Part shown: piece by piece, positions 3,232-26,866 of the stretch | Position numbering within the stretch: the stretch's first letter is position 1 | Layout: each line of letters begins with the position of its first letter | Assembly (NCBI GenBank): GCA_049510215.1 | Contig: JBEKZD010000002.1 | Coordinates: 117,846-181,845 of the forward strand | Length of the DNA stretch: 64,000 bases | Reading direction: 5' to 3' | From: Verrucomicrobiia bacterium | GTDB lineage: Bacteria; Verrucomicrobiota; Verrucomicrobiia; Palsa-1439 | Translations under genes and position numbers: made by a program | The notes under the pieces: generated by a model | Seen by the model: the letters and a program-made list of their open reading frames with translations, nothing else | What the model was told of the DNA's origin: nothing | Databases searched by the model: none

Positions 3232-3291
3232 GGTAGGGCGCGACCGCCGGGCGCGCCAACGTCGCGGGCAGCCCGGCGGTCTGCCCCTACC
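3232..3291. repeat. Family-B palindromic element, full copy (GGTAGGGCGCGACCGCCGGGCGCGCC ... GGGCAGCCCGGCGGTCTGCCCCTACC)
   Basis: Inverted arms; the same element is found at 11291-11358, 26798-26866 and a solo arm at 19839-19860. Confidence 0.75.
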
Positions 3292-3310
3292 ATCGCATGA
3301 CCTTGTAGCG

Positions 3311-4888
3311 TCACACCTTGGGCCCGGCGGCCAGGATCTCGGCGGACACGCCCTTGAACTGCTCGAAGTTTTTGATGAACCGCGCCGCCAGATCGCGCGC
3401 CCGCCGTTCGTAATCCTTGATGTCACTGGCCGATAGCCGCGGATCGAGCACTTCCGGCGGCATCTCCGGCAGCGCCTTCGGCACCTCGAAACCGAACACC
3501 GGATCGATCCAAAACTCGGCCCGGTCGAGCAAATCGTTCAACACATGCGCAACACTGTGCCGGTTGTGCCACAGCGGAATGCGCGGGCCTTGCCCGAACG
3601 GCTCGCCGACCCAGCCCGTGTTGAGCAGGTAACACTGCACCTTGTGTTCGCGCATCTTCCTGGCCAGCATCTCGGCGTAGGTTTGCGGCGGCAACGGCAG
3701 AAACGGCGCGCCGAAACACGCCGAGAAGGTCGGCACCGGATTCCTGCCGAGGTTGGTTTCCGTGCCGGCCAGCGACGCCGTGTAGCCGGACATGAAATGG
3801 TACATCGCATGGGCGGGACTCAGGCGCGCCACGGGCGGCAACACGCCAAACGCGTCGCAAGCCAGAAACACGATGGCCCGCGGATGGCCGCCCAGGCCGC
3901 CGGGAACCGCGTTGGCTATGTAGTCCAACGGATAGGCACAGCGGGTGTTCTCGGTGATCGAATCGTCAAAGTAATCCGGCTCGCGCGTGACCGGGTCCAC
4001 CACCACGTTCTCGATCACCGAGCCGAAGCGAATCGCGTCCCAGATCAGCGGCTCGCGTTCCTTGGTGAGTTTGATGCACTTGGCGTAACAGCCGCCTTCG
4101 AAGTTGAACACGCCCTGGTCGCTCCAGCCGTGCTCGTCGTCGCCGATCAGGCCGCGGTTCGGGTCGGCCGAGAGCGTCGTCTTGCCCGTGCCGCTCAAGC
4201 CGAAAAACAGCGCCACGTCGCCGTCTTTGCCGATGTTGGCCGAGCAATGCATCGGCAACACGCCCTGAAGCGGCAGCACGTAGTTTAAGACGCTGAAAAT
4301 GCTCTTCTTCATCTCGCCCGCGTATTCCGTGCCGCCGATGAGCACGGTCCTGCGCGCGGAATCCACAATGATGAACGCTTCGCTGTTGAGCTTATGCTTC
4401 TTCGGATCGGCGAGAAACTTGCAGGCGTTGATGACCGTCCACTGCGGCGCATGGCTCTCGAGTTGCTCCGGCGCGGCGCGACGGAACAATTGTTTCACAA
4501 ACAAACTGTGCCACGCCAGTTCCGTGATGATGCGGATCGGCATCGTGTAGCGCGGGTCCGCGCCGGCAAAACCATCCATCACGAACAACTCGCGGCCCTG
4601 CAAATAGGCCAGCACTTCCTGCCGCAACCCGAGATAACCTTCCTCGGAAATCGGCTGGTTGGTCTTGCCCCACCAAATCTTGTCACGGGTCGACGGCTCT
4701 TCGACGACGAACTTGTCGCGCGGCGAACGCCCCGTCCGCTTGCCCGTCAACGCGTTGATCGCGCCACTGCTGGTCAACACCGCTTCGTTCCGCCGCACCG
4801 CCTCCTCGATCAAGCGGACGGGCAACAGATTCCAATGCACCTTGCCGGGGCGCACGATGCCGTGATTTTCCAGTCCATACTGACCCAT
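3311..4888 (-). CDS. pckA: phosphoenolpyruvate carboxykinase (ATP)
   Basis: 525 aa with the kinase-1a motif FFGLSGTGKTTLS and PEPCK-ATP family features. Confidence 0.9.
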   Translation of the reverse strand: MGQYGLENHGIVRPGKVHWNLLPVRLIEEAVRRNEAVLTSSGAINALTGKRTGRSPRDKFVVEEPSTRDKIWWGKTNQPISEEGYLGLRQEVLAYLQGRELFVMDGFAGADPRYTMPIRIITELAWHSLFVKQLFRRAAPEQLESHAPQWTVINACKFLADPKKHKLNSEAFIIVDSARRTVLIGGTEYAGEMKKSIFSVLNYVLPLQGVLPMHCSANIGKDGDVALFFGLSGTGKTTLSADPNRGLIGDDEHGWSDQGVFNFEGGCYAKCIKLTKEREPLIWDAIRFGSVIENVVVDPVTREPDYFDDSITENTRCAYPLDYIANAVPGGLGGHPRAIVFLACDAFGVLPPVARLSPAHAMYHFMSGYTASLAGTETNLGRNPVPTFSACFGAPFLPLPPQTYAEMLARKMREHKVQCYLLNTGWVGEPFGQGPRIPLWHNRHSVAHVLNDLLDRAEFWIDPVFGFEVPKALPEMPPEVLDPRLSASDIKDYERRARDLAARFIKNFEQFKGVSAEILAAGPKV

Positions 4889-4967
4889 AAGTGAATTCCC
4901 TCGCCGTTGCCCGGCGGGTTTACACCGAATTCAAAAGCTAGGCAACAGAAAAAAGCATGGACTGAAA

Positions 4968-5028
4968 AGTAGCCCGGGCGTCCCGCCCGTAAACCACCTC
5001 ACGAAACGGGCGGGACGCCCGCGCTACC
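4968..5028. repeat. Family-A palindromic element, full copy; overlaps the stop codon of the radical-SAM gene
   Basis: AGTAGCCCGGGCGTCCCGCCCGT ... ACGGGCGGGACGCCCGCGCTACC. The TAG stop (plus-strand CTA at 5024-5026) of the minus-strand gene lies inside the right arm. Confidence 0.75.
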
Positions 5029-24691: not shown

Positions 24692-24791
24692 ATGGTCTCC
24701 TATTATTTAGTTTCCGTACTTCTGACATTTCCCGACGCGCCTCGGCAAGCTCCGTGGTCATTGGGGGCAACTCTTGAAACTGGACAGCCAA

Positions 24792-26687
24792 TCAGTTTCC
24801 CTTCCTCTCAATCTTCGCCCACGTGTCCTTCAGTGTAATTGTCCGGTTGAACACGACTTTGCGGTGCCTCGTGACTGGTGATTCGAGATTCGTGTCGGGG
24901 TCTAGGGCGAAATACCCAAGCCGTTCAAACTGATACCGCACGTCGGGTCTGGCGTCCTTGAGACTGGGCCTGCCCGCCATAGCTTCAGCGACGGCGGGCT
25001 CGCACTTGGCGGTGACGACTTCGAGGCTGTGCGGGTTGATGTTCGCGATGAAATCATTGCGGACGGCTGAGCCAGCCGTCCCTACCTCGGAAACGTCTTC
25101 GGGATTCTCTTTGGTGAACAGGCGGTCGTAGAGACGGCATTCGGCTTCGATGGCGTGCGCTGCCGAAACCCAGTGGATTGTGCCTTTGATCTTCCGGGAA
25201 GAAGTTGGTCCACCGGTCTTGCTTCCCAAATCGGCGGTGCAGCGGAGCTCGGTCACCTTCTCTGCTGCGTCCTTCACAACTTCATAGCACTTGATGATGT
25301 AGGCGTATTTCAGCCGGACTTCGCCGCCGGGTTTTAAGCGGAAAAACTTCGGTGGCGGCGTTTCCATGAAGTCGTCCTGCTCGATGTACAGCGTCCGACT
25401 GAACGGAATCTTGCGGGTGCCGGCGGTCGGATCTTCGGGGTTGTTGACGGCGTCGAGTTCTTCAAAATGGTTCTCGGGCAAGTTCGTGATGACGAGCTTG
25501 AGCGGACGCAACACGGCCAGCCGACGCAGGGCGCGTTTGTTGAGGTCCTCCCGGATAGCGTGTTCGAGGACGGCCACGTCGGTGAGCGAGTTGTACTTGG
25601 TGATGCCGATGTTGTAGGCGAACTCGCGCAATGCCTGCGGAGTCACGCCACGCCGGCGCAGGCCGCTGATGGTCGGCATCCGCGGGTCGTCCCAGCCGGA
25701 AACAAGCTTCTCGTTCACGAGCTGCATGAGCTTGCGTTTGCTCATGATGGTGTAGCCGACGCTGAGCCGGGCGAACTCGTACTGGTGTGGCAACGGACGC
25801 GGCAGGTCGAGGTTTTCCAGAATCCAGTCGTAGAGCGGCCGGTGCACTTCGAACTCGAGCGTGCAAATGCTGTGGGTGATACCTTCGATATAATCGCTCA
25901 GGCAATGGGCGAAATCGTACATCGGGTAGATGCACCATTTGTTGCCGGTGTGATGATGCTCCGAATGGCGAATCCGGTACAGAATCGGATCGCGCATCCA
26001 GATGTTGGACGACGCCATGTCGATCTTTGCCCGCAACGTCCGGGTGCCGTCGGGGAACTCGCCGTTCTTCATCCGCACGAACAGGTCGAGGCTCTCCTCG
26101 ACGGAACGGTTGCGGTACTCGCTCGGTTCACCGGCTTTGTCGGGTGCACCGCGCATCCGGTCCACTTCCTCCGGCGTGTGATCGCAAACGTAGGCTTTGC
26201 CATTCTTGATGAGTTCGAGTGCGAACTCGTAAATCTGGTCGAAGTAGTCCGAGGCGTAAAAGGGCTCTAACGCGGAAGGATGAGGGATGAGGGATGAGGG
26301 ATGAGTGTTAACAACGGCGGGGAGATAAAAATCCGGTTTGCCGTTGACGGTCTGCGGGTCGGGCGTTTTGCCGACCGGTTTCAGGCCGAGGCAATGGTCG
26401 GCCCAGCCGGAGATGAGCCATTTCACGTCCGCCGTGATGGAGTCCACGTACTCGACGTCTTCCTTGGCCGGGTTGGTGTCGTCCATGCGGAGATTGCACT
26501 GGCCGCCGAACTCGCGGGCGATGCCGAAGTTCAGGCAGATGGATTTCGCGTGGCCGATGTGGAGATAACCGTTCGGCTCCGGCGGGAACCGGGTGACGAT
26601 CTTCTTGTGCTTTCCCGACGAGAAATCTTGCTGGACGATGTCGCGGATGAAATCGGATGGCTGTACGGTTGAATTCTCGTTGGGCAT
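24792..26687 (-). CDS. glnS: glutamine--tRNA ligase
   Basis: [21 protein letters not shown], class I GlnRS. Start trimmed to ATG at 26687. It carries an in-frame CATCCCT heptamer repeat (26278-26305) encoding [10 protein letters not shown]. Confidence 0.9.
26278..26305 (-). repeat. CATCCCT heptamer x3.7 (family D) in-frame in glnS
   Basis: Reverse complement of ggatgagggatgagggatgagggatgag. Confidence 0.7.
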
Positions 26688-26797
26688 AACAGGTATAGGG
26701 AATAGCACTCCGTCGGTTGTAGGGCAAGCTCGCCCCGCTTGCCGTTTCCAACGACGGCGGCCGGACGGCTGTCCCACAATTCCTGCCGTGGCTACTG

Positions 26798-26866
26798 GTA
26801 GGGTGCGACCGCCGGGCGCGCCGCGTAATTGATTAAGTTCGGACGGCCCGGCGGTCCGTCCCTACC
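26798..26866. repeat. Family-B palindromic element, full copy, intergenic
   Basis: GGTAGGGTGCGACCGCCGGGCGCGCC ... GGACGGCCCGGCGGTCCGTCCCTACC. Confidence 0.8.

What the first reader, a model, noticed from the sequence alone, without database searches (positions are those of the whole stretch)
3232..26866. Family-B palindromic element (GGTAGGG-CGCGACCGCCGGGCGCGCC ... GGACGGCCCGGCGGTCCGTCCCTACC): 3 full copies plus a solo arm, in uvrA and gltX
This is a second, unrelated palindromic family with the same behaviour. It is intergenic at 3232-3291 and 26798-26866, in-frame in uvrA at 11291-11358 ([23 protein letters not shown]), and a solo arm sits in-frame in gltX at 19839-19860 (LGRDGPPGLRR). Co-existence of independent families that each colonise CDSs in-frame points to a genome-wide process and not a one-off.
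Basis: seen in the sequence. Interest (0 to 1): 0.7.

Follow-up and report, generated by a model that had tools for sequence, protein, structure and literature searches.

The report
GTAG-tagged REP hairpin repeats in Verrucomicrobia
The repeat is real, but it is a new family of an already described kind: short REP hairpin repeats that a small RAYT transposase is thought to spread, some of which survive inside genes because they sit in frame in tolerant protein linkers.

Summary
Seven arms matching GGTAGGG-NNN-GACCGCCGGGC lie at four sites, where 0.03 are expected by chance. They sit between PEPCK and a SurA-like gene, in frame in uvrA, in frame in gltX, and upstream of glnS.

The basic unit is not the long palindrome. 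It is a 26-nt unit: a GTAG foot, a 6-bp stem that covaries, and an invariant loop ACCGCCGGG. The "full copies" are two inverted units with the feet facing outward, which is the REPIN/BIME layout. The gltX copy is a single unit split by a 39-nt insertion.

The same unit occurs in at least 120 loci of public genomes, almost all Verrucomicrobiota plus a few other PVC phyla. In at least eight public loci, inverted units of this family flank a REP-associated tyrosine transposase (RAYT) gene. In-frame copies inside real domains occur in at least eight other loci.

GTAG-tagged REPs in the verrucomicrobium Opitutus terrae, including dimers inside both uvrA genes, were published in 2013 (PMC3733652). 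This is therefore a new member of a known kind. Two aspects are less ordinary: the unit is conserved across a phylum, and close strains carry different palindromes at the same uvrA codon position. No RAYT was found in the window, and none could be assigned to its source genome.

The parts
3232..3291 (.). REP doublet with feet outward: left unit 3232-3257 (+, stem type CGCG) and right unit 3266-3291 (-, stem type GCAG). It is intergenic, 19 nt downstream of the PEPCK stop (3311) and 42 nt upstream of the SurA-like start (3189). Both genes are on the - strand.
   Evidence: gene limits from the gene calls
11291..11358 (.). REP doublet in frame in uvrA: left unit 11291-11316 (+, CGCG) and right unit 11333-11358 (-, ACGG). 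It encodes [23 protein letters not shown] (UvrA residues 1237-1259). The insert starts at the last residue of the UvrB-interaction domain match and ends a few residues before the CPKC zinc motif.
19839..19904 (+). Single REP unit (ACGG type) in frame in gltX, split into 19839-19860 and 19900-19904 by a 39-nt in-frame insertion at 19861-19899. It encodes GRDGPPG-LRRAEVATATQAG-RP, in the gap between the catalytic and anticodon-binding domain matches.
26797..26866 (.). REP doublet: left unit 26797-26822 (+, TGCG, one stem mismatch) and right unit 26841-26866 (-, ACGG). The spacer is AT-rich and contains stop codons. It is intergenic, upstream of glnS; the neighbouring genes are all on the - strand.
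25060..25086 (-). Single unit of a sister GGTAGGG-tagged family (GGTAGGGACGGCTGGCTCAGCCGTCC; 9-bp stem, 3-nt loop). It is in frame in glnS and encodes VGTAGSAVR inside the C-terminal anticodon-binding domain match.
   Evidence: the same unit partners a family-B unit in L049
7583..13303 (+). Host gene uvrA, a tandem double UvrA of 1906 aa. It carries one family-B doublet and three family-A doublets, all in frame.
18864..20306 (+). Host gene gltX (glutamyl-tRNA synthetase). This is the longest ORF; the true start is probably the Met at about 18918.

Best explanation
Family B is a family of GTAG-tagged repetitive extragenic palindromes (REPs). The unit is about 26 nt: an unpaired foot GGTAG, a 6-bp stem GG-NNN-G / C-N'N'N'-CC, and the loop ACCGCCGGG, which can form two more C:G pairs after a bulged A. 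Units occur singly or as inverted pairs with the feet outward (BIME/REPIN-like), and a pair can fold into one long hairpin.

By analogy with E. coli TnpA(REP), a cognate HUH/Y1 REP-associated tyrosine transposase (RAYT) would recognise the hairpin and its GTAG foot on single-stranded DNA and cut and rejoin it. That would seed new copies around the chromosome.

Copies that land in genes are normally lost. They survive only where reading frame and protein function are kept. Survival is easy here because only the frame that reads TAG in the foot is closed, so 4 of 6 frames are open. It also requires that the site is a surface loop or an interdomain linker. The uvrA and gltX copies are survivors of this kind and are translated as 23-aa Gly/Pro/Arg-rich inserts.

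Shown here: the anatomy, stem covariation, dispersal across genomes, RAYT genes flanked by this family, in-frame copies inside real domains, and the linker position of the inserts. Inferred: that a RAYT moves them, and that the intragenic copies are neutral passengers.
For: Anatomy and significance.

Stem covariation: in 136 units from 120 loci the three free stem positions all pair in 116, with at least 13 stem types. On 40 of the 60 distinct unit sequences, 88.8% of cells pair against 69.8 +/- 2.0 in shuffles (0/500) and 35-44% when the partner is slid.

Dispersal: at least 120 loci, nearly all Verrucomicrobiota, plus Kiritimatiellota, Lentisphaerota and a few others.

RAYT link:
- The genes in L089, L024 and L047 exceed the NCBIfam equivalog cut-off for REP-associated tyrosine transposase, NF047646 (87.7, 85.0 and 91.5 bits against 80).
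- In L024, L156, L157, L158, L162 and L167 the gene is bracketed by inverted family-B units with feet outward. In L089 and L138 it has family-B units on both sides.
- Related RAYT clades are bracketed by other GGTAGGG-tagged hairpins. This is the pattern expected if a RAYT and its REP evolve together.
- The RAYTs keep the W-Q-x4-[D/E]-H-x2-R motif. That motif is assigned to GTAG recognition in PMC6006769.

Intragenic copies elsewhere: one Pfam domain match, or a two-part match to a single family, spans the insert in L021 (carboxyltransferase), L022 (peptidase M17), L023 (GcvP), L060 (sulfatase), L091 (protein kinase) and L103 (IspG/GcpE). In L049 (double UvrA) and L107 (ABC-F) the unit lies in a linker between domains of one protein.

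Linker position in the window.

Open frames.

Precedent: Opitutus terrae GTAG REPs, with more than 70 intragenic copies, both uvrA genes hit and stem sub-families with compensatory changes (PMC3733652).
Against: - No RAYT is encoded in the 64-kb window. None could be assigned to the source MAG: the best public RAYT hits carry accessions of other MAGs.
- Mobility is not shown. No empty versus filled site with identical flanks was found, and there is no target-site duplication to mark insertion.
- The first 22 nt of the gltX unit are identical in a relative whose GluRS is only 77% identical in the region compared. The 18 specified bases are invariant across a phylum. Both are unusual, because REPs are usually described as species-specific (PMC6006769). 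This leaves room for selection on the sequence itself or for gene conversion among copies.
- About 35% of units in the sampled loci lie in an open frame with at least 60 codons on each side (50 of 144 units counted, window included). This is an upper bound, but it is high for "extragenic" elements.
Confidence: 0.85

Rival explanations
1. The units are host-selected functional sites and are not mobile. Examples would be a binding site for a conserved PVC protein, or an RNA hairpin that stabilises or terminates transcripts. On this view the RAYT association is secondary.
For: - The head and 9-nt loop are invariant across at least 100 species-level genomes while the stem covaries.
- The gltX unit is kept base for base in a relative with 77% identical GluRS.
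- A doublet lies in the same intergenic region upstream of glnS in L041, whose glnS is 76% identical at the DNA level.
- The 3232 doublet lies 19 nt after the PEPCK stop. That is the usual place for REPs thought to act on mRNA 3' ends (PMC3733652).
Against: - Copies lie in both orientations and in different reading frames inside unrelated genes, at positions that are not orthologous.
- Close strains carry three different palindromes at the same uvrA position.
- RAYT genes are flanked by the same units.
- No U-tract follows the hairpins.
- Rfam reports no family at these sites.
Confidence: 0.08
2. The 60-70-nt copies are MITEs: terminal inverted repeats left from an insertion sequence and moved by a DDE transposase.
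For: Each full copy has about 26-nt inverted ends and a variable middle.
Against: - No target-site duplication flanks any of the three doublets (flanks read).
- Each arm is a hairpin on its own and occurs alone in many loci.
- The two arms often carry different stem types.
- The only gene found flanked by these arms is an HUH/Y1 RAYT, not a DDE transposase.
Confidence: 0.03
3. The in-frame copies are kept for their peptide: a Gly/Pro/Arg-rich linker module selected at the protein level.
For: - The inserts are retained in essential genes. The uvrA insert is unchanged in 8 of the 9 sequences of the 90%-identity UvrA cluster that were aligned.
- The gltX insert is shared with a relative of 77% identity.
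Against: - The same DNA is read in several frames and orientations, giving unrelated peptides: [27 protein letters not shown] and TARRSVPT.
- Conservation is at the DNA level.
- The uvrA site holds unrelated inserts in close strains.
- Most GluRS homologues have no insert at this site.
Confidence: 0.02

Closest known systems
GTAG-tagged REP families of Opitutus terrae, GTAG-17 to GTAG-20 (Di Nocera, De Gregorio and Rocco 2013, BMC Genomics 14:522; PMC3733652)
   Same: - Same phylum.
- A GT[AG]G foot, a 6-9-bp stem and stem sub-families with compensatory changes.
- Single units and dimers, with several families coexisting in one genome.
- Many in-frame intragenic copies encoding 7-30 residues.
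- Both uvrA genes are hit, including a 1995-aa double UvrA. tRNA synthetases are hit in other species.
   Different: The family-B hairpin (loop ACCGCCGGG) and its peptides ([27 protein letters not shown]) are not in that paper's table of intragenic REPs. Its figure of consensus sequences is not held, so identity with a listed family cannot be fully excluded. Family A of this window, not family B, resembles their GTAG-19 ([12 protein letters not shown]).
E. coli REP/BIME elements and TnpA(REP)/RAYT (REPtron)
   Same: - A GTAG foot at the base of an imperfect hairpin with a bulge.
- Inverted pairs made of different sub-types, like the Y/Z types.
- A RAYT gene flanked by inverted REPs.
- The RAYT keeps the HUH and Y motifs and the WQ...[D/E]H..R residues assigned to GTAG contact.
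   Different: - A different phylum and a different hairpin sequence.
- E. coli REPs are almost entirely extragenic and are restricted to a genus or family. This unit is shared across a phylum and is often intragenic.
REPINs of Pseudomonas (Bertels and Rainey 2011)
   Same: Two inverted REPs form one long hairpin. They are associated with a RAYT that is typically present at one copy per genome, and they persist for a long time by vertical descent.
   Different: - Single units are common here, so the doublet is not shown to be the replicating unit.
- RAYT copy number and vertical inheritance were not tested.
Rickettsia palindromic elements (RPE)
   Same: Palindromic repeats inserted in frame in functional genes, often in surface loops. 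Repair genes and tRNA-related genes are among the targets.
   Different: According to PMC3733652, RPE sequences end in CGTC rather than GTAG. From my own knowledge, RPEs are longer (about 100-150 bp) and have no known RAYT partner. Family B is not a member.

Membership tests
GTAG-tagged REP (REP/RAYT system) | Short (20-40 nt) imperfect palindrome that forms a stem-loop | tested here: met
   The 26-nt unit has a 6-bp stem. All three free stem positions pair in 116 of 136 units. Pairing is 88.8% against 69.8% in shuffles, 0/500. As DNA the unit folds at -8.6 to -10.7 kcal/mol.
GTAG-tagged REP (REP/RAYT system) | Conserved unpaired 5' GT[AG]G tetranucleotide at the foot of the hairpin | tested here: met
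   GGTAG precedes the stem in all 7 window arms. In the public loci the head was part of the search pattern, so its presence there is not an independent test. Independent support comes from hairpins flanking RAYT genes found by protein similarity, which carry the same GGTAGGG foot.
GTAG-tagged REP (REP/RAYT system) | Copies dispersed at unrelated loci | tested here: met
   There are four sites over 24 kb next to or inside unrelated genes. Several contigs of the same MAGs each carry copies, for example six contigs of Luteolibacter CAZVSA01.
GTAG-tagged REP (REP/RAYT system) | Tens to hundreds of copies per genome | not testable with these tools
   Only the 64-kb window and about 7 kb of extra flank of the source genome could be read.
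GTAG-tagged REP (REP/RAYT system) | Cognate RAYT gene flanked by REPs of the same family | tested here: met
   This was met in public relatives: L024, L089/L138, L156, L157, L158, L162 and L167. It was not shown for the source genome of the window.
GTAG-tagged REP (REP/RAYT system) | Predominantly extragenic location | tested here: inconclusive
   In the window, 2 of 4 sites are intragenic. Across the window and the loci together, 50 of 144 units lie in an open frame with at least 60 codons on each side. That is an upper bound, and at least 8 loci were verified with Pfam. Frequent intragenic copies are already reported for O. terrae REPs.
REPIN | Two inverted REPs that fold into one long hairpin | tested here: met
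   The three doublets fold at about -47 to -54 kcal/mol as RNA, z from -4.7 to -6.3.
REPIN | The doublet, not the single unit, is the replicating entity; the RAYT is single-copy and vertically inherited | not testable with these tools
   Single units are common. RAYT copy number per genome and RAYT phylogeny against host phylogeny could not be assessed on metagenome fragments.
MITE | Target-site duplication flanking terminal inverted repeats | tested here: not met
   The flanks are AAGCT|..|ATCGC, TCGTT|..|GGAAA and CTACT|..|TTGTG. None of them forms a direct repeat.
Rickettsia palindromic element (RPE) | CGTC end tag (as given in PMC3733652) | tested here: not met
   The ends are GGTAGGG/CCCTACC and full copies are 60-70 nt long.

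The most novel reading that the evidence does not exclude
The GGTAGGG-hairpin unit with loop ACCGCCGGG is an ancient REP-RAYT partnership. It would have kept its recognition sequence essentially unchanged across Verrucomicrobiota, Kiritimatiellota and Lentisphaerota. That is far broader and more stable than the species- or genus-level REP families described so far. It would also re-insert preferentially at existing palindromes. That would explain why three different palindromic inserts occupy one uvrA codon position in strains whose flanking DNA is 88-97% identical, and why uvrA and tRNA synthetase linkers are hit again and again.
Probability: 0.25. Interest if true: 0.6.

Novelty: new member of a known kind. 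Interest (0 to 1): 0.3.

Why it matters
- REP/RAYT systems have been studied mostly in Proteobacteria. This is a well-defined family from the PVC group with a clear cognate transposase clade, so the recognition rules (foot, bulge, conserved loop) could be tested directly.
- REPs are usually described as species-specific. A unit shared across a phylum bears on how long such partnerships last.
- There is a practical point for annotation. These units insert 8-25 residues into essential proteins (UvrA, GluRS, GlnRS, IspG, GcvP, kinases) and produce recurrent low-complexity peptides. Such peptides can mislead gene calling, domain boundaries and homology searches in Verrucomicrobiota.

Tried and rejected
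- **Decayed doublet in gltX.** I first read the gltX copy as a full but decayed doublet, from the alignment. I rejected this after a relative (L125) showed an uninterrupted single unit at the same site. The window copy is that unit plus a 39-nt insertion.
- **Rfam.** At gathering thresholds it finds nothing at the repeats.
- **RAYT in the window.** A motif search and phmmer found none.
- **RAYT in the source MAG.** The closest public RAYTs carry accessions of other MAGs (MFZ, MFA and MEY, against MGA2220569/573 for the window). The search therefore failed.
- **Literature.** Full-text searches for the unit sequence and its peptides returned only unrelated papers.
- **Close-relative contig L121.** It looks like a long-read assembly with indels, because uvrA is split into several gene calls. 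I did not use its frame shifts as evidence, only the identity of its insert.
- **L041.** The doublet upstream of glnS lies in the same intergenic region but cannot be aligned with the window copy, so shared ancestry of the insertion is not established.
- **Viral contigs.** Twelve hits were found and not followed up.
- **Local duplication, chance and assembly artefact.** All were rejected.
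Full report
**The observation.** Searching the left arm with up to three mismatches finds seven arms, at 3232(+), 3291(-), 11291(+), 11358(-), 19839(+), 26797(+) and 26866(-). Shuffles give 0.03 on average. The three full copies fold into long hairpins as RNA: about -47 to -54 kcal/mol over both strands, z from -4.7 to -6.3.

Pfam identifies the surrounding genes:
- a SurA-like PPIase at 2005-3189 (-) and PEPCK at 3311-4888 (-);
- a 1906-aa tandem double UvrA at 7583-13303 (+);
- GluRS at 18864-20306 (+) and GlnRS at 24792-26777 (-);
- a class II ribonucleotide reductase at 27475-30546 (-).

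The quoted peptides are correct. Two independent assemblies are identical to window 1-14888, and the exact UvrA sequence is on record on 33 contigs. It is annotated at NCBI as a MAG of "Verrucomicrobiia bacterium". The copies are real sequence.

**The unit.** Reading all matches in context shows that the repeating unit is not the 60-70-nt palindrome. It is a tagged hairpin of about 26 nt: GGTAG, then a stem GG-NNN-G, the loop ACCGCCGGG, and then C-N'N'N'-CC.

The three stem positions left free by the search pattern, and everything 3' of the loop, were unconstrained. All three positions pair in 116 of 136 units, with at least 13 stem types. On 40 of the 60 distinct unit sequences, 88.8% of cells pair against 69.8 +/- 2.0 in shuffles (0 of 500). 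When the partner is slid, 35-44% pair. Three of the six pairs change on both sides.

The "full copies" are two inverted units with their feet outward, usually of different stem types (CGCG with ACGG, CGGG or GCAG). Single units are also common. This is the anatomy of REP sequences and of their inverted pairs, called BIMEs or REPINs.

**Distribution.** Nearly all of the 120 loci come from Verrucomicrobiota. The genera and families named include Luteolibacter, Akkermansia, Haloferula, Opitutaceae, Puniceicoccaceae, Pelagicoccus and Udaeobacter. A few come from Kiritimatiellota (Pontiella, Tichowtungia), Lentisphaerota, one MAG labelled Riflebacteria and one labelled Acidimicrobiia. Two Streptomyces hits and one Nocardioides hit look like chance.

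**The transposase.** The window encodes no HUH/Y1 protein, but the fetched loci do. The genes in L089, L024 and L047 exceed the NCBIfam equivalog cut-off for REP-associated tyrosine transposase. Pfam gives weaker Y1_Tnp matches.

In L024 the gene is bracketed by inverted family-B units, and in L089 it has units on both sides. A metagenome scan with these two proteins returned 80 loci. In L156, L157, L158, L162 and L167 the RAYT gene is bracketed within about 40-90 nt by inverted family-B units with feet outward. The loop there is ACCGCCGGG or ACCGCTGGG. Related RAYT clades are bracketed by other GGTAGGG-tagged hairpins.

The RAYTs keep the HUH motif (LMPDHLH) and Y-x3-NP. They also keep the W-Q-x4-[D/E]-H-x2-R stretch, which Quentin et al. 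2018 assign to contact with GTAG (PMC6006769). More than 1000 relatives exist, and several sources name them RayT.

I could not show that the window's own genome has such a gene. The best hits belong to other MAGs.

**The intragenic copies in the window.** In UvrA the insert begins at residue 1237. That is the last residue of the UvrB-interaction domain match and a few residues before the CPKC zinc motif. Against solved UvrA structures the segment is 17 residues longer. Among homologues this loop varies from about 6 to 26 residues.

In GluRS the unit fills the gap between the catalytic and anticodon-binding domain matches. Most homologues have no insert there. A relative whose GluRS is 77% identical in the region compared (P0148, locus L125) carries an uninterrupted single unit, GGTAGGGACGGACCGCCGGGCCGTCCG, at exactly this site. 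The window copy is the same unit with 39 nt inserted at 19861-19899.

A unit of a sister family (GGTAGGGACGGCTGGCTCAGCCGTCC) lies in frame in glnS and encodes VGTAGSAVR.

**Intragenic copies elsewhere.** A single Pfam domain match, or a two-part match to one family, spans the unit in a carboxyltransferase (L021), a peptidase M17 (L022), GcvP (L023), a sulfatase (L060), a protein kinase (L091) and IspG (L103). In a double UvrA (L049, at a different site) and an ABC-F ATPase (L107) the unit lies in a linker between domains of one protein.

The same DNA is read in different frames and orientations, which gives [27 protein letters not shown] or TARRSVPT. Only the frame that reads TAG in the foot is closed, so four of six frames are open. 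The intergenic copy at 26797 has stops only in its AT-rich spacer.

The in-frame state is best explained by survivorship. Insertions that keep the frame in a tolerant linker persist. There is no need to assume that the element prefers coding sequence.

**Turnover at one site.** Members of the 90%-identity UvrA cluster mostly keep the family-B insert unchanged. One member (P0143, locus L124) has flanking DNA 95-97% identical to the window. At the same position it has an unrelated 118-nt composite palindrome, CCCCTCACCC...GGGTGAGGGG. A third contig (L121, 88-95% identical) has yet another palindrome there, GTGGGAGCGGC...GCCGCTCCCAC.

The loop is thus a hot spot, either because it tolerates anything in frame or because palindromes attract further insertions. 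Di Nocera et al. noted something similar for recB in Xanthomonas.

**Comparison with what is known.** Di Nocera, De Gregorio and Rocco (2013, PMC3733652) defined GTAG-tagged REP families in more than 80 species. They singled out the verrucomicrobium Opitutus terrae as highly enriched, with four coexisting families, dimers and stem sub-families with compensatory changes. [quoted passage not shown] Both uvrA genes carry two inserts each, one of them in a 1995-aa double UvrA, and tRNA synthetases are hit in other species.

The peptides of family B are not in their table, whereas family A of this window resembles their GTAG-19. A full-text search for the unit or its peptides found nothing relevant. 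The finding is therefore a new family of a known kind, showing known behaviour.

**What is less ordinary.** REPs are usually called species-specific (PMC6006769). Here 18 specified bases are exact in over a hundred species-level genomes of several classes and phyla, and the gltX unit is kept base for base while its flanks diverge. Whether this reflects very old vertical descent with a constrained RAYT recognition site, horizontal spread within the PVC group, or gene conversion among copies could not be decided with fragments.

**Verdict.** Mechanism: GTAG-tagged REP units, probably mobilised by a cognate RAYT (confidence 0.85). The transposase step is inferred from the flanked genes in relatives and from the E. 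coli precedent. Novelty: new member of a known kind. Interest: 0.3.

Noticed in passing
window 954-994, 4968-5030, 9412-9488, 9986-10056, 12146-12224, 27381-27421, 36333-36420: Family A is a GTAG-tagged REP (AGTAGCGCGGGCGTCYCGCCCG). Three of its doublets are in frame in uvrA and encode [18 protein letters not shown] and [13 protein letters not shown]. These peptides match those listed for GTAG-19 of Opitutus terrae, whose double UvrA (Oter_2709) carries GTAG-19 inserts at residues 638-644 and 1601-1623. The family-A inserts here lie at about residues 610-636, 802-825 and 1522-1548.
   Followed up: partly
window 1902-1962, 6444-6469, 35866-35891: A third tagged family has a GTGG foot (GGTGGCACAGGCGTCCCTGCCTGTG). 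In all, the window holds 35 GT[AG]G-tagged perfect hairpins against about 13 in shuffles, concentrated in the first 36 kb.
   Followed up: partly
window 8286-8326, 20328-20360, 26264-26304: A GGATGAGGGATGAGGG-type repeat occurs in both orientations. It is in frame in uvrA ([11 protein letters not shown]) and in glnS ([14 protein letters not shown]), and one copy lies just after gltX.
   Followed up: no
window 11289-11364, compared with L124 4585-4703 and L121 about 3200-3300: Three different palindromic inserts occupy the same uvrA codon position in contigs whose flanks are 88-97% identical. This is an insertion or replacement hot spot.
   Followed up: partly
window 19861-19899: The 39-nt insertion inside the gltX REP unit is bounded by a GGGCC direct repeat. 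It lengthens the hairpin (CCGCC pairs with GGCGG) and contains two small hairpins of its own.
   Followed up: partly
window 18651-18817 (-): A c-di-AMP riboswitch (RF00379; 52.9 bits against a gathering score of 38) lies just upstream of gltX on the opposite strand.
   Followed up: no
window 7583-13303: UvrA is a tandem fusion of two complete UvrA copies (1906 aa). The closest homologues outside this group in the listing are from Burkholderiales and other Proteobacteria, at about 60-65% identity in the region searched.
   Followed up: no
L166 1246-2290; L138 1256-2261: A decayed RAYT gene in L166, with internal stops, is flanked on both sides by tandem direct arrays of family-B units with a 38-nt period. 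L138 shows arrays with a period of about 130 nt around an intact RAYT.
   Followed up: no
L157 1501-1935; L024 6899-7381: Some RAYT genes flanked by family-B units look inactive. L157 has TAG in place of the Gln of the WQ motif. L024 has His in place of the catalytic Tyr (ADHIRANP) and runs without a stop into the downstream ORF.
   Followed up: no
Viral contigs L126-L137: Twelve IMG/VR contigs contain an exact family-B unit. Whether these are phage sequence or host flanks of prophages was not examined.
   Followed up: no
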